From an uncultured Cellvibrionales bacterium (GTDB lineage Bacteria; Pseudomonadota; Gammaproteobacteria; Pseudomonadales; JAHEGP01): a stretch of DNA of 29,537 nucleotides. The stretch spans positions 1 through 29,537 of the forward strand of contig CBDUUA010000001.1 in the NCBI GenBank assembly GCA_965370135.1, written 5' to 3'. Made by a program: the position numbers and the translations under genes. Below are positions 1 through 7,880 of this stretch, piece after piece; position 1 is the stretch's first letter, and each line of letters starts with the position of its first letter. The notes under the pieces were generated by a model that made no database searches, had not been told where the DNA came from, and worked only from the letters and a program-made list of their open reading frames with translations.

Positions 1-2
1 AG

Positions 3-425
3 CTACTGCAGGGTAAAGCCAGCTATGTCCACCTGTCGGCGATTAGCTGCGTGGATTGGATTGAAGATGACGAGTTCGAGCTGGTCTACCACGTCGTCTC
101 CTATGAGACCCATTCGCTGGTTTCGGCGCACACCCGTATCGCGCGGGACCCCGGCAGGTATCTCTCGGTGTATGACCTCTACACCCCCGCCGCTTTTTTT
201 GAGCGCGATATTCATGAGATGTTCGGTGTCTTTTTCGAGGGTAGCCCGGACATGGAGAAGTTCATTCTTACCGAGTGGGACGGCCCGCCACCGATGCGCA
301 AGGATTTCGATTCCGAAGCGTTCGTAAACCAGACCTTCCAGTGGGAGGAATACCATCCCCAGTGGCTCAGGGATATTGAGGCAGAAGGCGGTGGCATTAC
401 CACCCGGCCGGAGGACGTGCGCTGA
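3..425 (+). CDS. NuoC-like subunit (complex I 30 kDa family; MbxK/MbsK-like), 5'-truncated by the window edge
   Basis: The frame is open from base 3 (LLQGKASYVHLSAISCVDWIEDDEFELVYHV), so the gene starts before the window. It has NuoC-family motifs 'FERDIHEMFGVFFEG' and 'PPMRKDF'. The stop overlaps the next ATG (TGATG, 423-427). Confidence 0.88.
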   Translation, partial: LLQGKASYVHLSAISCVDWIEDDEFELVYHVVSYETHSLVSAHTRIARDPGRYLSVYDLYTPAAFFERDIHEMFGVFFEGSPDMEKFILTEWDGPPPMRKDFDSEAFVNQTFQWEEYHPQWLRDIEAEGGGITTRPEDVR

Positions 426-1567
426 TGCGACCCGAAAACTACGAGGCAACCCGGCAGCCGCCCAGCAATGAGTACGAGCTGAATTTTGGCCCCAACCATC
501 CCGGCATCGAGGGCAACTATGCCTTTAAGGTCAAACTCAACGGCGATATAGTCACCGAGGCCAGGGCGGACGCCGGTTATCTGCACCGGGGTTTCGAGAA
601 GTTGATGGAGGGGCGGCTGTGGATCCAGAATATCGCCTTGGTACCTCGCATCTGTGTGCCGGATCCGGTACCGATGGAGGTCTGTTACTCCCTGGCCATC
701 GAGGAGCTTTGCGGCCTAGAAGTGCCCAAGCGCGCACAGTGGCTTCGCGTCATGCAACTGGAGATGTCGCGGCTGGCGGCCCATTTATTTGCCTTCGGCG
801 GGCACGCGGCCACTACCGGTATGTATACGCCGAGCTTCTGGGGTGTTGCCGATAGAGACCTCATCCTGGATCGCTTTGAAGAGCTTACCGGAGGGCGGGT
901 TTACAGTATCTACAATATTCCGGGGGGCGTGCGCCGGGATATGCCTGCGGGTTTTCTGGATCGGCTGGGCAGCCTGCTCGATTACCTGGATTCGCGGCTG
1001 CCGGATTACGACAATCTGTTTTTTCGCAATCAGGTCTTTATCAAGCGTGCCCGGGATGTGGGCACCCTGAGCCAGGAGCAGGCCCTGAAGTGGGGTGTCA
1101 CCGGCCCCAATCTCCGGGCCACCGGATTGGAATTTGATGTGCGCCGGGATGATCCCTATCTGGTCTATGACGAGATCGAATTTGATATTGCCACCCAAAG
1201 CGCCGGCGATGCGCTGGCGCGAAACCTGGTGCGCCGCAGCGAGTTACAGCAGAGCATTCGCATCCTGCGCCAGGTGATTGAGCAACTGCCATCCGTGAAG
1301 GGGCCGGTGCGCTGCCCGATTCCCAACCCGCTGGCCTGGAATGTTCCCACCGGCGAGGCGTATACGCGGGTGGAATCATCCAAGGGTGAATTGGCCTATT
1401 ACGTGGTCTCCACCGGCGGCGACAAGCCCTACCGGGTTCATGTCAGGGGGCCGTCGAGTATGCATGCGGTACAAGTATTGGAGAAGCTGGCAGTTGGCTG
1501 CCGCTTGGAGGATGTCGCGCAAATCATGTTTTCTCTCGATGCCTGTCCGCCGGAGGTCGATCGCTGA
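425..1567 (+). CDS. NuoD-like / hydrogenase large-subunit-fold protein (complex I 49 kDa family), MbxL/MbsL-like
   Basis: Motifs 'LNFGPNHP', 'GYLHRGFEKL', 'FEELTGGR', 'GPNLRATG', 'RVESSKGEL' and 'RGPS'. It retains C77 (RICVPD) and C374 (SLDACPPEVDR). TGATG coupling at both ends. Confidence 0.92.
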   Translation: MRPENYEATRQPPSNEYELNFGPNHPGIEGNYAFKVKLNGDIVTEARADAGYLHRGFEKLMEGRLWIQNIALVPRICVPDPVPMEVCYSLAIEELCGLEVPKRAQWLRVMQLEMSRLAAHLFAFGGHAATTGMYTPSFWGVADRDLILDRFEELTGGRVYSIYNIPGGVRRDMPAGFLDRLGSLLDYLDSRLPDYDNLFFRNQVFIKRARDVGTLSQEQALKWGVTGPNLRATGLEFDVRRDDPYLVYDEIEFDIATQSAGDALARNLVRRSELQQSIRILRQVIEQLPSVKGPVRCPIPNPLAWNVPTGEAYTRVESSKGELAYYVVSTGGDKPYRVHVRGPSSMHAVQVLEKLAVGCRLEDVAQIMFSLDACPPEVDR

Positions 1568-3405
1568 TGTCGGATATTACCCACGAGGATAAAGGCAGTA
1601 TCCTGGGGCCTCTCAAGAGCCTGCGTTTTTTTTCTCGCAAGCCTGTTACCGAGCCATTGGAGCCGCGGGTTGCGGCTGATAACTACCGGGGCTTCCACGT
1701 CAACGATTGGGATGCCTGTATTGGCTGCAGTACCTGCCAGAAGGTGTGTGACAATGCCGCCATCACCATGGTCAAGATTCCCGAATTGCCCGAGGATCCG
1801 CTCGCAGGTATCCGCAACGAGCGCCCGGCGATAGATTATGGCCGCTGCTGCTGGTGTGGGCTGTGTGTGGATATTTGTCCTACCGGCTCGATCTCGCTAA
1901 CCCAGGAGTATGTGCACACCTGCCGCGAGGATGAACTCGACAGCTATTTTATCCTGCCCGACTCCAAAGGCATGCACAATACGCCATTTCCCAAGGGCTG
2001 GGCCAAGACCGAGGATGCCGATCTTATCGACCTCGAGCGCCAGCCCATGGCCGAGATGGATCCGGTCAGCCGCAGTGACAATTTTGATGAGATCGTCGAT
2101 GGCTTTACCCCGCAGGAGGCCATTATCGAGGCGTCGCGCTGTGTGCAGTGCGGTATGTGTTACGACGCCTGCCCGACCCATATGCATGCGCCGGAGTATA
2201 TCCGCGCCATCTGGGAGGGTGATGCCGAGGAAGCCGTGCGCCAGATGTACCGCAGCAATCCTTTCTCCCATGTGTGTGGTCGCGTCTGCACCCACCGCTG
2301 TGAGACCGCCTGCTCGATTGGTACTCGGGGCGAGCCTGTCGCCATACGCTGGTTGAAGCGCTATGCCATGGATGCCGTGCCCGATGAGCGGGTCAGGGAG
2401 ATCGCCGCCGAGGGCAAAGCCGATTTTATCAGCGGTAAAAAAATTGCCATCATCGGCGCCGGCCCCGCCGGTCTCACCGCCGCCTTTGATCTGGTAAAAA
2501 AAGGGCATGAGGTAACGGTCTACGAGGCGCTGGACAAACCCGGGGGCATGACCCGCTACGGTATTCCCGAATATCGAATGCCCTACGATCGCCTGGATGC
2601 CGATGTTGGCGTGATTGTCTCACTGGGAGTGGATATCCGTTACAACGTTCGTATTGGCACCGATGTCAGTATGGACGAGCTTGAAAATGAGTTCGATGCC
2701 GTACTGGTGGCCATTGGCATGCAGGTGGGTCGCTCCACTCGCATTCCCGGTTCTGATCACGAGCAGGTTCGATCATCGGTGGAACTGTTGCGCATGATTA
2801 CGGCGGGTGAGGCTTTCGATGTGCCTGAATCCGTGGTGGTGATCGGCGGTGGCAATGTGGCCATGGATATTGGGCGCAGTCTGGCGCGCATGCAGAAAAT
2901 TCGCTATGGCAAGGTCGGCATGACGCTGGCGGCACTGGAAGATTTCGATCACTTTTTAGCCGACCCGGAAGAACTCAAAGAGGCGCGGGAGGAGGGGATC
3001 GAAATCTACGACAGCCGCGGCCCCAGGGAGTGTGTCATCGATGAAAACGGCGGTTTGAAGGGGCTGACAACACTGGGGGTGAAGTCTATCTTTGATGAGG
3101 ATGGCCGCTTTGCACCGAGTTACGATGACAGCGACGAGCAGATGCATCATGCCGATATGGTGGTTGAGTCCATCGGCCAGATGAGCGATATCTCGCTCTT
3201 TGGTGAAGCCCTTACCGAAATGCTTGAATGGAACCGTGGCCGTTTGCAGGTCGATGACGAGGGGCGCAGCTCAGTGTCCTGGTTGTGGTCCGCAGGGGAT
3301 ATGGTGAATGGCCCGGATGTGGTAACAGCGGTGGCCGATGGGCATCGCGTCGCGGACAGCATCGAGGCCTATTTGAACAATGCCGGGAGTGACCGTCATG
3401 TCTGA
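1567..3405 (+). CDS. Fusion of a NuoI-like 2x[4Fe-4S] domain and a GltD/SudA-like FAD/NAD(P)H oxidoreductase
   Basis: N-terminal 'KPVTEP...NYRGFH' plus CIGCSTCQKVC and CCWCGLCVDICP. Then the GltD Fe-S domain (RCVQCGMCYDACP, CGRVCTHRCETAC), the FAD motif IIGAGPAG, the NAD(P) motif VIGGGNVAMD, and C-terminal 'SAGDMVNGP..V..AVADG'. Confidence 0.9.
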   Translation: MSDITHEDKGSILGPLKSLRFFSRKPVTEPLEPRVAADNYRGFHVNDWDACIGCSTCQKVCDNAAITMVKIPELPEDPLAGIRNERPAIDYGRCCWCGLCVDICPTGSISLTQEYVHTCREDELDSYFILPDSKGMHNTPFPKGWAKTEDADLIDLERQPMAEMDPVSRSDNFDEIVDGFTPQEAIIEASRCVQCGMCYDACPTHMHAPEYIRAIWEGDAEEAVRQMYRSNPFSHVCGRVCTHRCETACSIGTRGEPVAIRWLKRYAMDAVPDERVREIAAEGKADFISGKKIAIIGAGPAGLTAAFDLVKKGHEVTVYEALDKPGGMTRYGIPEYRMPYDRLDADVGVIVSLGVDIRYNVRIGTDVSMDELENEFDAVLVAIGMQVGRSTRIPGSDHEQVRSSVELLRMITAGEAFDVPESVVVIGGGNVAMDIGRSLARMQKIRYGKVGMTLAALEDFDHFLADPEELKEAREEGIEIYDSRGPRECVIDENGGLKGLTTLGVKSIFDEDGRFAPSYDDSDEQMHHADMVVESIGQMSDISLFGEALTEMLEWNRGRLQVDDEGRSSVSWLWSAGDMVNGPDVVTAVADGHRVADSIEAYLNNAGSDRHV

Positions 3406-3961
3406 TCCAGTTGAAGGCAAAGTAGTTAAAGGCAAAGTAGCTGAAGGCCAGGCAGTTGAAGGCCATAGTGATTCCTACAAACGTATCAAATCGAAAAAGA
3501 GCCTCGGGGAGATACTTGAAGTCGCTACCAGCTTCGAGCAAAAGGCCTTTGAGTTTTACACCGACTTGATACCGAAAGTCAGCAAGAATCTGCGCTGGCT
3601 GGCGGAGGAATTGGCCGAGGAGGAGAAGGAACATTACGATTTATTCCGCCGACTCGCGGAAGATCCCTCCATTGAAGACCAGATTACGCAGCAGATTCAA
3701 ATACCGGTAGAGGATCGCCGCTTTTCGGACTATATTCAGCTGCCTGACCTGGGTGAAAAGCCCGACGATCAAACCATTTTACAGTACGCCATGGGCCGTG
3801 AAGATGCCGCGATGAAACAATACCGCGAGCTTGCCAATTCAACCCAGCCGGGAGCGATTCACGACCTGTTCGAGTTTCTTGCCAACGAGGAAACCAAACA
3901 CAAGCAGGAACTTGAAAAGCTCTACTATGAGCTTATTCACAGCGGTGGCCCGGGGAATTAA
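3398..3961 (+). CDS. Ferritin-like di-iron protein (rubrerythrin/erythrin family, no rubredoxin domain)
   Basis: Two E...EExxH helix pairs (SFEQKA...EEEKEH; GREDAA...NEETKH). The ATG at 3398 is preferred over 3380 because GGGAG lies at 3385-3389 and it overlaps the upstream stop by 8 nt. Confidence 0.85.
   Translation: MSDPVEGKVVKGKVAEGQAVEGHSDSYKRIKSKKSLGEILEVATSFEQKAFEFYTDLIPKVSKNLRWLAEELAEEEKEHYDLFRRLAEDPSIEDQITQQIQIPVEDRRFSDYIQLPDLGEKPDDQTILQYAMGREDAAMKQYRELANSTQPGAIHDLFEFLANEETKHKQELEKLYYELIHSGGPGN
3410..3466 (+). repeat. Imperfect 15-nt tandem repeat (~4 units) in the 5' end of the ferritin-like gene
   Basis: GTTGAAGGCAAAGTA / GTTAAAGGCAAAGTA / GCTGAAGGCCAGGCA / GTTGAAGGCCAT, encoding VEGKV VKGKV AEGQA VEGH. 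Confidence 0.85.
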
Positions 3962-4094
3962 AGCGGCTTTTTGATCGATTGAAAAAGTTAGTACAGCGAT
4001 GCTGGCCAATAAGCTTACTGTCTGAGATGCCGATAAAAAAAGAGGGGGCGGTATGGCATTTGCTGATTACCCACAAACCTCAGCCAAGCAAAGT

Positions 4095-4156
4095 GGCCGA
4101 ATAAATTCGGCCCTACAGCAGGGTGGGCGGAGTTGTAGGGTCGAATTTATTCGACC
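4095..4156. repeat. REP doublet (REPIN-like): inverted pair of 23-nt GTAG-type palindromes
   Basis: GGCCGAATAAATTCGGCCCTACA (4095-4117) and TGTAGGGTCGAATTTATTCGACC (4134-4156) are reverse complements except at 2 compensatory positions. The spacer is 16 nt. Confidence 0.8.
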
Positions 4157-4218
4157 AAAGTCATCTCTGGGAAGAACTCCGTCGATACCGTATCGGTTGC
4201 TTACATTGGCTGAGCTTT

Positions 4219-4911
4219 ATGGGTAATCAGCTGGTATTTTACTACGGTTACCCCATGGGAGAATCGCTCTCTCTAAACGTCAAGAAAACGATCAAATCGG
4301 TCAAGGAAAATCCACCTTCAACGCAACATATAGGGCTCATCAAAGAGACTCTGGCAGGAGTTGCGAACATATCCATTGAATACAATTTACTCGAACTCGG
4401 AAGCCACCTGTATTCCCCTCGGTCTTTAACGATGCGTATCGTCAAGTTGACCGCAACGACGAGCATAGGGGCGAGTCATAGGATGATCAACAAGTTGGTC
4501 AAAACTCTCTCGGACGAGCAATTGACCCGTCTTGTTGAATACCTGGAGACTTTATATTTTGAACGAGACGGCGTTGGTTATATGGTTACGCCTATCAATG
4601 CCGCGCTGGATGCTGATTTTCACCGGGTCATTGACGGCATTCGCCATCACCCGCCTGCAACTGCGCATATTCCCGATTGCACCGCTGTCCAGCTCAAGCT
4701 CATTCACACCGTTTTGATGCATTGTGTTGTGGACTATGCCGACTATATCCAGATTGGCAGTTGGGGAACGAAAATAATAAACGGTGGTATGAATATCCTG
4801 AACAGCGGGCTGAATGCGTTGTTTCGCAAGAACATACAGAGTATGAACAGGAAGCAGTTGCTGACCCTGGCAGATTTTTATGAGGTTGCCCTGATGGCCG
4901 ATAGTGTTTAA
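4219..4911 (+). CDS. Hypothetical all-helical protein made of two tandem homologous domains
   Basis: The ORF is open from 4123, but that start lies inside the REP doublet, so ATG 4219 is preferred. The two halves align without gaps (YYGYPMGESL..ENPPSTQHI vs YMVTPINAAL..HHPPATAHI). Confidence 0.7.
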   Translation: MGNQLVFYYGYPMGESLSLNVKKTIKSVKENPPSTQHIGLIKETLAGVANISIEYNLLELGSHLYSPRSLTMRIVKLTATTSIGASHRMINKLVKTLSDEQLTRLVEYLETLYFERDGVGYMVTPINAALDADFHRVIDGIRHHPPATAHIPDCTAVQLKLIHTVLMHCVVDYADYIQIGSWGTKIINGGMNILNSGLNALFRKNIQSMNRKQLLTLADFYEVALMADSV

Positions 4912-5179
4912 AAGCGCTGGATGCCAGAGCCCAATTTACGCGGGAGGTCGGCATCGGGGCGATATATTTGTGCAGGTATTTTCGGGTGGTAAGGGGCATA
5001 CGGGTTTTGTCGTTGACGTGTATAAAGATGGCAAGTCAATTTATACGGGGGAGGGCAATTGTGCTAACCGCCTGAAAATTGGACTACGAAAAATAAGTTC
5101 TATTAGCCATTTTATTGGCATTGGCTGCTTCAGAGACGATCAAACCAGGGGTTTCAGTCGCAGTAAATTTGATGTGTAG
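4904..5179 (+). pseudogene. Possible C-terminal fragment of a CHAP-like (cysteine/histidine-dependent peptidoglycan hydrolase) domain
   Basis: 'GDIFVQVFSGGKGHTGFVVDVYKDGKSIYTGEGNC' resembles the CHAP GD...GHTGxV...TxEGN pattern. No recognisable N-terminal catalytic Cys segment at the expected distance. Confidence 0.4.
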
Positions 5180-5299
5180 GTCGTCGATGCGCAGGGGGGC
5201 ACACTGAGGGCCAAGAGGCGCGCTCGGAGAATGGGCGGGTGTCGAAATGGCAAACATGCGGCACACTAGAGAGTCTATGGGATATCTATAGGGTAGTGA

Positions 5300-6370
5300 A
5301 TGAACGTTAGGATCGATAAAATCAGGCTAAAAGCCAGTCACCAAACGCCTTTATTGTTGCTCGACCTGTTGATGATGGCGCTTATCCTGATCAATCTCGG
5401 CTGGTTGGCGTTTGATGCCTTATTTTCCAGCGAGTTGCTGCGGCAGGGCTTGTATCGGGTGTTTCCCCGTTTCACAACCTACTATGGGGCTCAGATACAC
5501 CCGAACTTCATTTATTACGATCTATATTTTGTGTACATATTTTTAACGGAACTTTCTGTCCGGTGGCTGATAGCGTTAAAGCGGCACACCTATCATCGTT
5601 GGTGGTTTTATCCATTTATTCATTGGTACGACGTACTGGGTTGTATTCCTGTCGGCTCTTTCCGGTGGTTGCGCCTGCTGCGTGTTTTCTCTATTTTTTA
5701 TCGGCTGGAAAGAAATAATATCATCGACATCTCGGGTACTCCGCCCGTGCGCTTTGTGATCAAGTATGTGAACGTGGTGATGGAAGAAATATCCAATCGT
5801 GTCGTGGTCAACGTGCTCACCAGTGTCCAGGATGAAATCAGCGAAGGCACTCCGGTTGTCAACAATATCATTGATCAGGTTGTCAGGCCCAGAATACCCG
5901 AAGTCACAGACTGGCTCATTGCTCGGCTTAGTGAACTGTCGGGTAAAGCCTACGAGAGCAAAAAGGAGGAATTGCGGGTTTATATCGATAAGGCCGTGTT
6001 GGATGCCTTCGCGCGCAATGACGGGGTAGCAGACTTGCAGCGGCTACCTCTGGTGGGCGATTCCGTCTCGAAGATTGTGGAGGAAGCTGTCGGTCAGTTG
6101 ATTTATGACCTTACCGAATATATTGTCGGTGACGTCACTGAACATATGGTCGGCGACGTTACTAACGTGGATGCCGATGCGCTGATCAGGGATTTAACAG
6201 AAACACTATCCGAGAAAATGATGGCGCCACCGCATAAGTTCAGGGAGGCCAGCCGGGATATGGCGATTGAGACGCTGGAGGTTGTTAAAGACCAGGCAAA
6301 AGTCCAAAAATGGAAGCTGGCGGAGGAGGCGGAACGCATTGAACGGCGGTCAGAAGTCCCTTCCGGGTAA
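5300..6370 (+). CDS. Ion-transporter-family membrane protein: voltage-sensor-like S1-S4 domain plus soluble helical C-terminal domain
   Basis: Hydrophobic helices with an S2 'IFLTE', an S3 'HWYDVLGCIP' and an S4 'FRWLRLLRVFSIFYRL'. No pore-loop signature seen. Confidence 0.75.
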   Translation: MNVRIDKIRLKASHQTPLLLLDLLMMALILINLGWLAFDALFSSELLRQGLYRVFPRFTTYYGAQIHPNFIYYDLYFVYIFLTELSVRWLIALKRHTYHRWWFYPFIHWYDVLGCIPVGSFRWLRLLRVFSIFYRLERNNIIDISGTPPVRFVIKYVNVVMEEISNRVVVNVLTSVQDEISEGTPVVNNIIDQVVRPRIPEVTDWLIARLSELSGKAYESKKEELRVYIDKAVLDAFARNDGVADLQRLPLVGDSVSKIVEEAVGQLIYDLTEYIVGDVTEHMVGDVTNVDADALIRDLTETLSEKMMAPPHKFREASRDMAIETLEVVKDQAKVQKWKLAEEAERIERRSEVPSG

Positions 6371-7390
6371 TGCTCTTGTGCCGCGAATGCGTGTTTTTTT
6401 GAGTACTCTCAGAAATGGGGAGGAGGGTCGCAATTGCGCCACCGCGGGTAAGTTGTCGGTAATGTCTACTTTTACCTTGTCGCTAGTCGATATGTTGTCG
6501 CTATAGGTGAACCGCCAGTCTACTTGTCCAATCTGTGTGGTGCCCTCCGGGTTTGCACCAATTTCAATTCTCAGGGCGACACCGTAAAGAAACTGTTCCA
6601 TATTGGCTGCGATACAAAAATCACCCAGACTATAGGCGAGCAGTTTGTTCGCGTGGGCAGTGGCGAAGCTTGTCACCGGCTGGGGGCAATGACTGTGATG
6701 GCCTACAAGTGCATCAAATTGCGCTGACAGCCGAGCTCCCTCACTAATCGTTTCCGGCCTTGGGTAGAGTTCATATTCGTAGCCCCAATGGGTGAAAAGA
6801 ATATTGAACCGATTTCGGTCGATATGGGCTGCTGCATCCTTATTGTAGGAAATGTAGTTACAGGGGTGATTGGACCAGTGAGAGCTGGCTATGATTCGAA
6901 TATCCTCGCCAATATCGCAGTAAGGATTTACTGCGGTTCCGAAGGTGTGAAATCCGCGCTCTTCGAGTAGATTGTTGGATTGCGTCCAAATCTCGTAACC
7001 AAAATCCCCCGCATGGTTGTTCGCCAGCCCGAGGTAGGTTCTATCCGGCGGAAAAAGATCGGCCAGGGCGTCGAGAACCTGCAGGCGATGCCGTTGACCC
7101 CTGGCAGGGCTGCGTGTGTCGGTGATTGTGCCCTCGAAGTTGCCTACCAGATAATCGCAACCCCGAACAAATTCTTTAACTCCAGGTCCTATTTCCAGGG
7201 TTTTATTTCCTGCGCTCATGATATCGTCGAGAAAGGCGATTCGAACCCTGGGGACGATTTTGATATTGAGCTGAAGGCACTTCGGGCTATGACTTACCAG
7301 CCCTTTGTGCTTTTCATTGAGCCCGAATTGCTTGCGTTTTAGGGAGCAGAGCGTTTCAACGAGTGGATAGGGGGAATGCTTGACTTTCAT
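6350..7390 (-). CDS. CapA family (PGA_cap) metallophosphoesterase-fold protein
   Basis: Motifs 'AFLDDIM', 'VGNFEG', 'LANNHAGDFG', 'THWGYEY', 'LVGHHSHCPQ' and 'AYSLGDF'. Confidence 0.82.
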   Translation of the reverse strand: MKVKHSPYPLVETLCSLKRKQFGLNEKHKGLVSHSPKCLQLNIKIVPRVRIAFLDDIMSAGNKTLEIGPGVKEFVRGCDYLVGNFEGTITDTRSPARGQRHRLQVLDALADLFPPDRTYLGLANNHAGDFGYEIWTQSNNLLEERGFHTFGTAVNPYCDIGEDIRIIASSHWSNHPCNYISYNKDAAAHIDRNRFNILFTHWGYEYELYPRPETISEGARLSAQFDALVGHHSHCPQPVTSFATAHANKLLAYSLGDFCIAANMEQFLYGVALRIEIGANPEGTTQIGQVDWRFTYSDNISTSDKVKVDITDNLPAVAQLRPSSPFLRVLKKTRIRGTRALPGRDF

Positions 7391-7514
7391 TATTGATCCA
7401 AAGTAAAACGGTACGGTGGGGAATGCGCAGTGCGAACCTTACATAACTGTAGCAATATCACTTTTCGATTTCATTTAATTTTACTGGAAACAATTACGTC
7501 ACGAGGAACTCCCA

Positions 7515-7880
7515 ATGATACTTATTCGCTTTATGTTGATGGCTTTGTTTTTTTCGAGCTTGCCGGTACACGCAGTTGTCGCTACTGATGACACCGTTAT
7601 CTGGATTGATGTGCGTTCAGTCGAGGAATACGATGCCGGTCATATAGAGGGCCACCCCAATATCCCGCATGAGCAGATTGGCCAGTCTATTAGTGAGATA
7701 ACAACGGATAAATCCGCGCCAATTCGAGTGTACTGTCGCTCGGGACGGCGCTCCGGGCTGGCGCAGCAGACATTGCAGGCTATGGGTTATACCAATGTCG
7801 TCAATATGGGTGGCTATGAAGCGGTAGCGGCAGAGCTTGAGGCTGAAGCCCCAGCTGAAACAGAAGCGCTAGCTCAATAG
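7515..7880 (+). CDS. pspE: Exported single-domain rhodanese (PspE-like sulfurtransferase)
   Basis: Signal-peptide-like N-terminus ending in VHA, 'WIDVRSVEEYDAGHIEG', active loop CRSGRRS and 'NMGG'. RBS GAGGA upstream. Confidence 0.85.
   Translation: MILIRFMLMALFFSSLPVHAVVATDDTVIWIDVRSVEEYDAGHIEGHPNIPHEQIGQSISEITTDKSAPIRVYCRSGRRSGLAQQTLQAMGYTNVVNMGGYEAVAAELEAEAPAETEALAQ

What the first reader, a model, noticed from the sequence alone, without database searches (positions are those of the whole stretch)
1567..3405. NuoI-GltD fusion gives the complex a built-in pyridine-nucleotide module, probably NADH-preferring
Seen: one 612-aa chain with four Fe-S-type Cys clusters (two NuoI-like, two GltD-like), a FAD GxGxxG (G297) and GGGNVAMD (G427). 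Where NADPH-using GltD/SudA proteins have a basic 'YRR' at the end of the strand, this protein has 'ALEDF' (E458, 2938-2940). Established: an acidic residue at this Rossmann position generally favours NAD(H) over NADP(H), and archaeal MBS takes electrons from ferredoxin through an unfused MbsN. As I recall, Thermotoga mbx clusters have a similar fusion, but this needs confirming. Inference: the module replaces NuoEFG or ferredoxin, making an NADH-coupled sulfane reductase or an ion-gradient-driven reverse electron route.
Basis: partly seen in the sequence, partly recalled or inferred. Interest (0 to 1): 0.72.

Follow-up and report, generated by a model that had tools for sequence, protein, structure and literature searches.

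The report
NADH-type flavoprotein fused to MbsN subunit
The gene is real: it fuses the iron-sulfur docking subunit of a sulfur-reductase-type, ion-pumping membrane complex (MBS/Mbx) to an NAD(H)-type flavoprotein. The same fusion is widespread, has been noted in print since 2015, and has never been tested biochemically.

Summary
ORF 1567-3405 (612 aa) has an MbsN/NuoI-like domain with two 4-Cys motifs. It also has a GltD/NfnB-type module with two more 4-Cys motifs, a FAD GxGxxG and GGGNVAMD.

The upstream genes are MBS-type, not complex-I-type. The NuoD-like protein matches P. furiosus MbsL best, lacks the quinone ligands and keeps the two vestigial Cys. In 72 of 76 informative related loci a NuoD-like gene sits directly upstream. 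In 46 loci the whole Mrp-NuoH-B-C-D set does. A di-iron rubrerythrin-like gene follows in 78 of 78.

The NADH idea gains support. Family alignments put A456-L457-E458 under the YRR of NADPH enzymes. E458 is invariant in 121 close homologs. NAD+-dependent E. coli PreT has Glu in the same column. A nested YRR subclade of the fusion has NfnAB-like neighbours instead of rubrerythrin. No assay exists.

It is not new. Degli Esposti 2015 described the gltD-type replacement and the terminal rubrerythrin in Thermotoga and proteobacteria. NCBIfam has a full-length model, and this scan met the fusion in at least five other genomes.

New here: the host looks like a Cellvibrionales-type sediment heterotroph. 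Its six congeners lack the gene, and the cluster sits at a synteny break. Acceptor and direction remain inferred.

The parts
3..425 (+). MbsK/NuoC-like subunit, with its 5' end cut by the contig end
   Evidence: Pfam Complex1_30kDa, 2.3e-24. It is 91-94% identical to the gene at the same position in loci L009-L013.
425..1567 (+). MbsL/NuoD-like subunit of MBS type
   Evidence: The best solved relative is 6u8y_L (MbsL) at 390.6 bits over the full length, against 265 bits for Nqo4. Nqo4 H38 aligns with E29 and Y87 with Val. Both vestigial Cys of MbsL (C85, C385) are kept.
1567..3405 (+). MbsN-GltD fusion gene (612 aa)
   Evidence: The AlphaFold2 model has pLDDT 89.8 and pTM 0.86.
1567..1959 (+). 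MbsN/NuoI-like domain (residues 1-131), comprising the N-terminal docking segment and a 2x[4Fe-4S] ferredoxin fold
   Evidence: Residues 8-131 align to residues 16-135 of 6u8y_N at 86.6 bits. The next-best NuoI-type subunits score 40-52 bits and an unrelated polyferredoxin (FwdF) scores 56.6. The Cys motifs lie at nt 1717-1749 and 1846-1881.
2074..2379 (+). Fer4_20 domain (residues 170-271) with two 4-Cys motifs (nt 2140-2175 and 2275-2313)
   Evidence: Pfam PF14691, 1.2e-29. The second motif is C-x3-C-x3-C-x3-C, two residues shorter than in GltD, PreT and NfnB.
2455..2472 (+). FAD dinucleotide motif GAGPAG (G297-G302)
   Evidence: G297 and G299 are invariant in alignments A1 and A4.
2845..2868 (+). 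NAD(P)H dinucleotide motif GGGNVAMD (G427-D434)
   Evidence: Invariant in 121 of 121 close homologs.
2932..2940 (+). A456-L457-E458, in the columns of the Y-R-R of NADPH-specific relatives
   Evidence: MAFFT alignments. E458 is present in 121 of 121 homologs. E. coli PreT (NAD+) reads A-R-E and GltD (NADPH) reads Y-R-R in the same columns.
3398..3961 (+). Rubrerythrin/ferritin-like di-iron protein without a rubredoxin domain. Its start overlaps the stop of the fusion gene by 8 nt.
   Evidence: Pfam Rubrerythrin, 8.7e-13, and the sequence at the junction. E47, E76, H79, E135, E165 and H168 are invariant in 34 orthologs, including Thermosipho. The gene is adjacent in 78 of 78 informative loci.

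Best explanation
ORF 1567-3405 encodes the last redox subunit of a bacterial MBS/Mbx-type, Mrp-linked ion-translocating complex. Its N-terminal 130 residues are the MbsN (NuoI-like) two-cluster ferredoxin that docks on the MbsJ/K/L/M module. The rest is an NfnB/GltD-type flavoprotein with two further [4Fe-4S] sites, FAD and a nicotinamide-dinucleotide site.

The proposed electron path is NADH, then FAD, then two GltD-type clusters, then two MbsN clusters, then the proximal cluster on MbsJ. There a sulfane-sulfur compound (polysulfide or persulfide) would be reduced, as in P. furiosus MBS. The reaction would be coupled to Na+/H+ movement through the Mrp-like membrane arm. NADH would thus take the place that ferredoxin has in the archaeal enzyme.

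NADH and sulfane sulfur differ by only about 50-60 mV (textbook values, from memory). The reaction is therefore near equilibrium and may run either way.

Shown here: the domain architecture, the MBS-type residues of the partner subunits, the conserved operon, and the loss of the Arg pair with an invariant Glu in its place.

Inferred: the preference for NADH, the acceptor, the direction of flow, and the physical attachment of the rubrerythrin-like protein.
For: Architecture
- The Pfam and NCBIfam scans give the domains.
- The GltD module superposes on the P. furiosus NfnI large subunit 5jca_L (TM 0.88 by target, rmsd 2.4 A).
- The N-terminal domain, including its docking segment, matches MbsN 6u8y_N best.

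MBS type rather than complex I
- The MbsL match is 390 bits against 265 for Nqo4.
- Both quinone ligands are absent and both vestigial Cys are kept (against PMC7684303).
- In relative L003 the NuoB-like protein matches MbsJ at 217 bits and carries the ungapped C-T-G-C motif.

Operon
- The gene order MnhE-MrpF-MrpG-MbhD-MnhB-NuoK-2x antiporter-NuoH-B-C-D-fusion-rubrerythrin is seen in L003 and L004.
- The same order occurs in 46 further loci, and a NuoD-like gene is adjacent in 72 of 76 informative loci.
- Thermosipho has it too.
- The own genome holds an MbsH' ortholog on the small contig C515.

NADH
- YRR aligns with A456-L457-E458.
- E458 is invariant.
- PreT, annotated NAD(+)-dependent, has Glu in that column.
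- In NfnI two conserved Arg bind the 2'-phosphate (PMC6405883).
- The fused family is one clade, and the YRR forms are one nested subclade. Two of three examined YRR loci have NfnA/NfnB-like genes downstream instead of rubrerythrin.

Physiology in other carriers
- T. maritima mbxA is induced by S0 (PMC9431562).
- The Endoriftia 'Mrp-Mbx' genes are co-expressed with rTCA and hydrogenase genes (PMC11636981).
Against: - No member of the fused family has been assayed.
- The pairwise HMMER alignment shifts the motif by two residues, and E458 lies three residues after the modelled strand.
- [C/S/A]-L-E is common across uncharacterised GltD-like proteins (about 95 of 130 representatives), so the Glu could be structural.
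- PreT keeps one Arg that this protein lacks.
- The proteobacterial clade also changes the conserved M-P-A to F-L-A, with unknown effect.
- The driving force from NADH to sulfane sulfur is too small under standard conditions to pump even one ion.
- In this genome MbsJ and MbsM were not found with relatives' proteins (84% complete assembly), so the complex is not shown to be complete here.
- dsrA, SoxB and RuBisCO were not found either, so this host gives no sulfur-oxidiser context.
Confidence: 0.55

Rival explanations
1. The complex has the same architecture but runs in reverse. The Na+/H+ gradient would drive electrons from sulfide, persulfide or another low-potential donor at the MbsJ/L site up to NAD+. 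This would give reducing power more cheaply than reversed complex I.
For: The NADH/sulfane-sulfur couple is near equilibrium (textbook potentials). Most carriers are sulfur-oxidising autotrophs: Sedimenticola, Thiogranum, tubeworm symbionts, Lamprocystis, Thiobacillus and Thiomargarita. The authors list the direction of MBX in Endoriftia as unknown.
Against: Thermotogales are fermenters and carry the same LE-type fusion, and T. maritima induces mbx with S0 as acceptor. In this host, dsrA, SoxB and RuBisCO were not found. No MBS has been shown to oxidise sulfide.
Confidence: 0.15
2. The complex is a ferredoxin:NAD(P)+ oxidoreductase, the older Mbx model. Ferredoxin would still donate at the MbsN clusters, and the GltD module would be the exit that reduces NAD(P)+, as Degli Esposti 2015 proposed. 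The MbsJ/L pocket would be only a coupling site.
For: PMC4758237 reads the gltD-type subunit as the reduction site for NAD(P)+. The Mesotoga preprint models Mbx in the same way.
Against: P. furiosus MBS reduces polysulfide at the proximal cluster (PMC7684303), and the MBS-specific features of MbsL and MbsJ are conserved here. An Rnf complex already fills this role in many carriers, according to the papers read.
Confidence: 0.12
3. The dinucleotide site is not NADH-specific. It would use NADPH or both nucleotides, or it would be a degenerate site serving mainly as the docking surface for the rubrerythrin-like protein.
For: LE-type motifs are common in uncharacterised relatives. The aligners disagree on the exact column. 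M-P-A is changed to F-L-A.
Against: GGGNVAMD is invariant and no basic residue remains near the 2'-phosphate position. The PreT parallel holds. The LE/YRR split follows one branch of the tree.
Confidence: 0.15

Closest known systems
[quoted passage not shown]
   Same: The gene order in relatives is the same 13-gene order A-B-C-D-E-G-H-H'-M-J-K-L-N. MbsL, MbsJ and MbsN are the best solved matches for the L, J and N parts. The quinone ligands are absent, two vestigial Cys are kept, and the MbsJ C-x-x-C motif has the same length.
   Different: MbsN is unfused in the archaeon and takes electrons from ferredoxin. Here it carries about 480 extra residues of NfnB/GltD-type flavoprotein and is followed by a di-iron protein. 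The host is a mesophilic gammaproteobacterium.
[quoted passage not shown]
   Same: The paper describes the same replacement of NuoI by a gltD-related flavoprotein and the same terminal rubrerythrin. Thermosipho shows the identical cluster. The full-length match to NF010590 covers residues 9-606.
   Different: The score of 806.6 bits is below the model's cut-off of 946. The proteobacterial clade has F-L-A-D where Thermotogae have M-P-A-D. The paper read the module as an NAD(P)+ reducing exit and did not address nucleotide specificity.
NfnB / NfnI large subunit (PDB 4YLF, 5JCA) and glutamate synthase small subunit GltD
   Same: They share the fold (TM 0.85-0.88 by target), the two [4Fe-4S] sites, the FAD site with the Arg that contacts N5 (R337 here), and the GxGxxA motif.
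   Different: The Arg pair YRR is replaced by ALE. The second cluster motif is two residues shorter and lacks the P-Q-E stretch. There is no NfnA or GltB partner next to the gene.
E. coli PreT, small subunit of NAD+-dependent dihydropyrimidine dehydrogenase
   Same: It is a GltD-type module with Ala and Glu in the first and third columns of the YRR triplet (A-R-E against A-L-E).
   Different: It has only 34% identity and a different partner (PreA). It keeps the middle Arg and the longer cluster motif.

Membership tests
MBS/Mbx-type respiratory complex (P. furiosus MBS) | A 13-gene cluster that joins an Mrp-like module (A-G, H, H') to M, J, K, L and N in that order | tested here: inconclusive
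   The feature is met in relatives of 60-84% identity. In this genome only K (partial), L and N lie on the window and H' lies on contig C515. J and M were not found in the 84%-complete assembly.
MBS/Mbx-type respiratory complex (P. furiosus MBS) | MbsL lacks the quinone ligands (Nqo4 H38, Y87) and two of the four NiFe Cys, but keeps C85 and C385 | tested here: met
   The alignment to 6u8y_L and 2fug_4 shows H38 aligned with E29 and Y87 with Val. The Cys in R-I-C-V-P and in A-C-P-P are present. The criteria come from PMC7684303.
MBS/Mbx-type respiratory complex (P. furiosus MBS) | MbsJ carries the shortened C-x-x-C motif that leaves one Fe of the proximal cluster without a Cys ligand | tested here: inconclusive
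   The feature is met in relative L003, where C-T-G-C aligns without a gap to MbsJ. The gene of the window's own genome is not assembled.
MBS/Mbx-type respiratory complex (P. furiosus MBS) | Ferredoxin-dependent polysulfide reduction coupled to ion translocation | not testable with these tools
   This needs biochemistry. The fused flavoprotein argues that the donor is not ferredoxin.
GltD/NfnB-type flavoprotein (Fer4_20 + Pyr_redox_2) | Two [4Fe-4S] motifs, a FAD GxGxxG, an NAD(P)H GxGxxA, and the NfnB-like fold | tested here: met
GltD/NfnB-type flavoprotein (Fer4_20 + Pyr_redox_2) | The Arg pair (YRR) that binds the 2'-phosphate of NADPH | tested here: not met
   A-L-E occupies those columns, and no basic residue occurs in residues 450-470.
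Glutamate synthase small subunit (functional GltD) | Passes the NCBIfam GltD models and is paired with GltB | tested here: not met
   TIGR01317 scores 221 bits against a cut-off of 447.7, and TIGR01318 scores 217 against 483. The neighbours are MbsL and a rubrerythrin-like gene, not gltB.
NCBIfam NF010590 (PRK13984) fused oxidoreductase | A whole-protein score above the curated cut-off | tested here: not met
   The score is 806.6 bits against a cut-off of 946. The match is nevertheless end to end (residues 9-606 on model positions 8-609 of 611).
Complex I subunit NuoI | Passes the NuoI models and sits in a nuo operon with a quinone-type NuoD | tested here: not met
   TIGR01971 scores 72 bits against a cut-off of 113. 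The partner NuoD-like protein lacks the quinone ligands.

The most novel reading that the evidence does not exclude
The rubrerythrin-like di-iron protein might sit on the NfnB-like flavin where NfnA sits in Nfn. It would then act as a second, high-potential electron exit. In that case the bacterial MBS would be a flavin-based electron-bifurcating respiratory complex. NADH oxidation would be split between the di-iron site and the low-potential Fe-S chain, which would supply the driving force for ion pumping that NADH-to-sulfur alone lacks.

Points compatible with this reading:
- The N5-contacting Arg (R337) is retained.
- The gene directly downstream of the fusion is either the rubrerythrin-like gene (many LE types) or an NfnA-like gene (two YRR types).
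- One triple fusion exists.

Points that weigh against it:
- The second cluster motif is all-Cys and shortened, and lacks the Nfn-type Glu ligand.
- No structural test could be run.
Probability: 0.07. Interest if true: 0.85.

Novelty: new member of a known kind. Interest (0 to 1): 0.3.

Why it matters
If the inference holds, bacteria turned an ancient ferredoxin-driven sulfur-reducing pump into an NADH-driven and probably reversible one by fusing on a flavoprotein. That would be a third solution beside the NuoEFG module of complex I and FpoF.

The complex is common in sulfur-oxidising symbionts and sediment bacteria, yet no one has assayed it. The E458/YRR switch gives a simple mutational test of nucleotide choice. 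Cultivable carriers make the biochemistry feasible: Thermosipho, Thermotoga, Lamprocystis purpurea and Parasulfuritortus cantonensis.

For this window specifically, the cluster seems to have reached a lineage whose relatives lack it. This bears on how such respiratory modules spread.

Tried and rejected
- **Complex prediction.** I submitted the GltD module (residues 150-612) with the rubrerythrin-like protein. 
- **Island junction in public reads.** I looked for independent support for the contiguity of the island. Only short, low-depth Logan contigs from marine-sediment runs were available.
  - One contig form joins 4053 to 4232 across the repeat.
  - Positions 7188-7536 are not bridged.
  - A chimeric join therefore cannot be excluded.
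- **False triple fusions.** My ORF script suggested triple fusions in L074 and L051. Listing the ORFs showed these were long open frames in another frame of GC-rich DNA, not fusions.
- **Further triple fusions.** A search with the C-terminal domain of P0122 found only P0122 itself, so that Rosetta-stone link rests on one MAG.
- **Candidate for the missing MbsJ.** I first took the NuoB on contig C406 for it. It is followed by a reading frame of more than 475 aa, and the MbsJ of a relative finds nothing in the genome. It most likely belongs to the canonical nuo operon.
- **Sulfur-oxidiser physiology as context for this host.** dsrA, SoxB and the RuBisCO large subunit were not found in the 84%-complete genome. 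GyrA's nearest named relatives are Halieaceae/Cellvibrionales-type. I dropped this argument.
- **NfnB alignment.** The pairwise HMMER alignment to NfnB was set aside in favour of the family alignments, and the disagreement is flagged above.
Full report
**1. Observation**

ORF 1567-3405 on the + strand is open and gives 612 residues.
- The four 4-Cys motifs start at C51, C94, C192 and C237.
- GAGPAG starts at G297.
- GGGNVAMD starts at G427.
- E458 is encoded by nt 2938-2940.

- Pfam finds a dicluster ferredoxin on residues 50-108, Fer4_20 on 170-271 and Pyr_redox_2 on 292-588.
- NCBIfam NuoI models hit residues 9-128.
- The full-length model NF010590 (PRK13984, 'putative oxidoreductase') matches residues 9-606 at 806.6 bits, below its cut-off of 946.

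An AlphaFold2 model built on a 50-sequence alignment is confident (pLDDT 89.8, pTM 0.86). Its C-terminal 460 residues superpose on the P. furiosus NfnI large subunit (TM 0.88 by target, rmsd 2.4 A).

**2. The complex it belongs to**

The window is a whole contig that begins inside a NuoC-like gene. The NuoD-like protein (425-1567) is MBS-type, not complex-I-type.
- Its best solved relative is MbsL of the P. furiosus MBS (6u8y_L) at 390.6 bits over the full length, against 265 bits for Nqo4.
- Nqo4 H38 aligns with a Glu, as in MbsL, and Y87 aligns with a Val.
- Both Cys that MBS retains from the NiFe site (MbsL C85 and C385) are present. The criteria come from Yu et al. 2020, PMC7684303.

The N-terminal domain of the fusion matches MbsN (6u8y_N) over residues 8-131. 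The match includes the segment before the ferredoxin fold, and it scores 86.6 bits. The next-best NuoI-type subunits score 40-52 bits, and an unrelated polyferredoxin (FwdF) scores 56.6.

Relatives on long contigs show the full gene order: MnhE, MrpF, MrpG, MbhD, MnhB, NuoK-like, two antiporter-like subunits, NuoH, NuoB, NuoC, NuoD, the fusion, and a rubrerythrin-like gene. This is the mbs/mbx order A-B-C-D-E-G-H-H'-M-J-K-L-N. The NuoB-like protein of relative L003 matches MbsJ at 217 bits. Its C-T-G-C motif aligns without a gap to the shortened MbsJ motif.

I examined 80 loci from species-representative genomes.
- 72 of the 76 with usable upstream DNA have the NuoD-like gene directly upstream.
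- 46 show the whole set from MnhE onwards.
- 78 of 78 with downstream DNA have the rubrerythrin-like gene next.

The four exceptions are Thiomargarita, Candidatus Venteria and Thiotrichaceae-type genomes. There the fusion-rubrerythrin pair is detached, and in Thiomargarita a NuoH-like gene lies 7 kb away. The data therefore do not refute the reading.

In the window's own genome an MbsH' ortholog (73% identity) sits on the 1.7-kb contig C515. MbsJ and MbsM were not found with relatives' proteins in this 84%-complete assembly.

**3. Already known**

- I confirmed this directly in Thermosipho melanesiensis, which has the same cluster, a 616-aa fusion and a 167-aa ferritin-like gene.
- T. maritima mbxA is induced by S0, although those authors assumed ferredoxin as the donor (PMC9431562).
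- In the Riftia symbiont a 'putative Mrp-Mbx complex' is co-expressed with the rTCA cycle and hydrogenases, and its direction is listed as unknown (PMC11636981).
- Earlier follow-ups in this scan reached the same verdict on at least five other genomes.

The architecture is therefore a known kind, although it has not been tested biochemically.

**4. The nucleotide site**

Family-level alignments put A456-L457-E458 in the columns of Y-R-R.
- E. coli GltD (NADPH) reads A-Y-R-R.
- E. coli PreT, annotated as the NAD(+)-dependent dihydropyrimidine dehydrogenase subunit, reads V-A-R-E.
- The window reads A-A-L-E.
- Thermosipho reads T-S-L-E.

In NfnI two conserved Arg bind the extra phosphate of NADP+ (PMC6405883). 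That these are the YRR pair is my inference.

Among 121 homologs of 69-99% identity, A456, E458, L464-A465-D466 and GGGNVAMD are invariant (F463 in 120 of 121). The site is therefore under selection and is not decaying.

A maximum-likelihood tree of the GltD modules gives two results.
- All fused proteins form one clade (support 100/99).
- The fused proteins that carry YRR form one nested subclade (100/99). These come from Hydrothermae, Spirochaetaceae and others.

Two of three examined YRR loci have NfnA-like and NfnB-like genes directly downstream instead of rubrerythrin. This pattern is what one would expect if the triplet sets the nucleotide.

The caveats are as follows.
- A pairwise HMMER alignment shifts the motif by two residues.
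- E458 lies three residues beyond the modelled strand 452-455.
- [C/S/A]-L-E is common among uncharacterised GltD-like proteins (about 95 of 130 representatives).
- The proteobacterial clade changes the conserved M-P-A to F-L-A.

I put NADH preference at about 65-70%.

**5. Other features of the module**

- The Arg that contacts flavin N5 in NfnB (R187 in T. maritima) corresponds to the invariant R337.
- All fused proteins have C-x3-C-x3-C-x3-C in the second cluster motif. This is two residues shorter than in GltD, PreT and NfnB, and it lacks the P-Q-E stretch. This argues weakly against an Nfn-like, very low-potential cluster.

**6. The rubrerythrin-like partner**

- The gene at 3398-3961 overlaps the stop codon of the fusion by 8 nt.
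- It has no rubredoxin domain.
- It keeps a complete E / ExxH / E / ExxH ligand set, invariant in 34 orthologs including Thermosipho.
- One MAG encodes a 764-aa triple fusion in the same cluster. A targeted search found no second case.
- Not all LE-type fusions have the gene. A WOR-3 genome lacks it.
- One LE-type gene stands outside any MBS cluster.

I regard the protein as a probable accessory subunit. Its role may be peroxide or oxygen protection, or a second electron exit, but neither is shown.

**7. The host and the island**

GyrA on the same contig has its nearest named relatives (about 77% identity) in Halieaceae, Porticoccaceae and Microbulbifer. dsrA, SoxB and the RuBisCO large subunit were not found in the genome.

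The fusion gene was not found in any of six same-genus genomes, five of which are at least 90% complete. It was also not found in one genome from each of 34 other families of the order.

Three congeners keep the gene order from the HAD hydrolase through ScpAB, YciB and PdxJ to the rhodanese, at 60-83% protein identity. Beyond the rhodanese they diverge. None of the window's genes before about position 7400 (MBS genes, rubrerythrin-like gene, three unknown ORFs, PGA_cap-like gene) is found in the regions fetched around that block.

The nearest MBS genes (MbsL about 91%, fusion 84%) lie in other genomic contexts in other MAGs. This points to horizontal acquisition.

A chimeric assembly cannot be excluded. 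Public runs gave only short contigs. One contig form bridges the high-copy repeat at 4094-4156, but none bridges 7188-7536.

**8. Mechanism and verdict**

The best-supported reading is an NADH-fed MBS-type complex. Electrons would pass from NADH through FAD and four clusters to the MbsJ proximal cluster, where sulfane sulfur would be reduced, with Na+/H+ coupling through the Mrp-like arm.

The NADH-to-sulfur span is only about 50-60 mV (textbook potentials, from memory). The reaction is therefore near equilibrium, and the direction in vivo is open.

The rivals are:
- gradient-driven NAD+ reduction;
- the older ferredoxin:NAD(P)+ model;
- a site that is not NADH-specific.

The finding is real and well placed, but it is a new member of a known kind, and I score it low to moderate.

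Noticed in passing
window 1-7400 compared with L097, L098 and L099: The MBS genes, the rubrerythrin-like gene, three unknown ORFs and a PGA_cap-like gene lie beyond a synteny break. Three same-genus genomes keep HAD...PdxJ-rhodanese and then diverge. The fusion gene was found in none of six congeners or 34 other families of the order. This suggests horizontal acquisition, although assembly chimerism is not excluded.
   Followed up: partly
window 3398-3961: A rubrerythrin-like di-iron gene is translationally coupled to the fusion by an 8-nt overlap. All six metal ligands are invariant in 34 orthologs, and there is no rubredoxin domain. It is adjacent in 78 of 78 informative loci.
   Followed up: partly
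window 4094-4156: A REP-like element is very high-copy in marine-sediment runs (summed contig depth 140-320, against about 5 for its flanks). Many different sequences are joined to it. A variant contig skips 4054-4231.
   Followed up: partly
window 4123-6370: A low-GC block (0.478 against 0.55-0.58 elsewhere) holds three ORFs of 262, 91 and 356 aa. They have no Pfam or NCBIfam family apart from a weak CHAP hit.
   Followed up: no
L091:12112-14540 and L096:5350-7601: In fused relatives that carry YRR, the genes directly downstream are NfnA-like (DHODB_Fe-S_bind) and NfnB-like (Fer4_20 + Pyr_redox_2) instead of rubrerythrin.
   Followed up: partly
L092:10001-12295 (P0122): A single 764-aa protein joins MbsN, GltD and the rubrerythrin-like domain within a complete MBS cluster. 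A targeted search found no second example, so it may be a true fusion or a sequencing error at the gene overlap.
   Followed up: partly
L072, L078, L082, L085 and L095: In Thiomargarita, Candidatus Venteria and Thiotrichaceae-type genomes the fusion-rubrerythrin pair is detached from the other MBS genes. One LE-type fusion (P0279) lies next to formate-tetrahydrofolate ligase with no MBS genes nearby.
   Followed up: partly
G000 contigs C406 and C82: The genome also appears to hold a canonical nuo operon. NuoB on C406 is followed by a frame of more than 475 aa, and three antiporter-like genes sit on C82. The MBS-type complex would therefore be additional to complex I.
   Followed up: no
L003:14687-21714 and L004:12546-19008: In two relatives the cluster is flanked by glycogen and fermentation genes: glycogen phosphorylase, PPDK, a debranching enzyme, Pta and AckA. 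These would fit NADH disposal during anaerobic breakdown of storage compounds.
   Followed up: no
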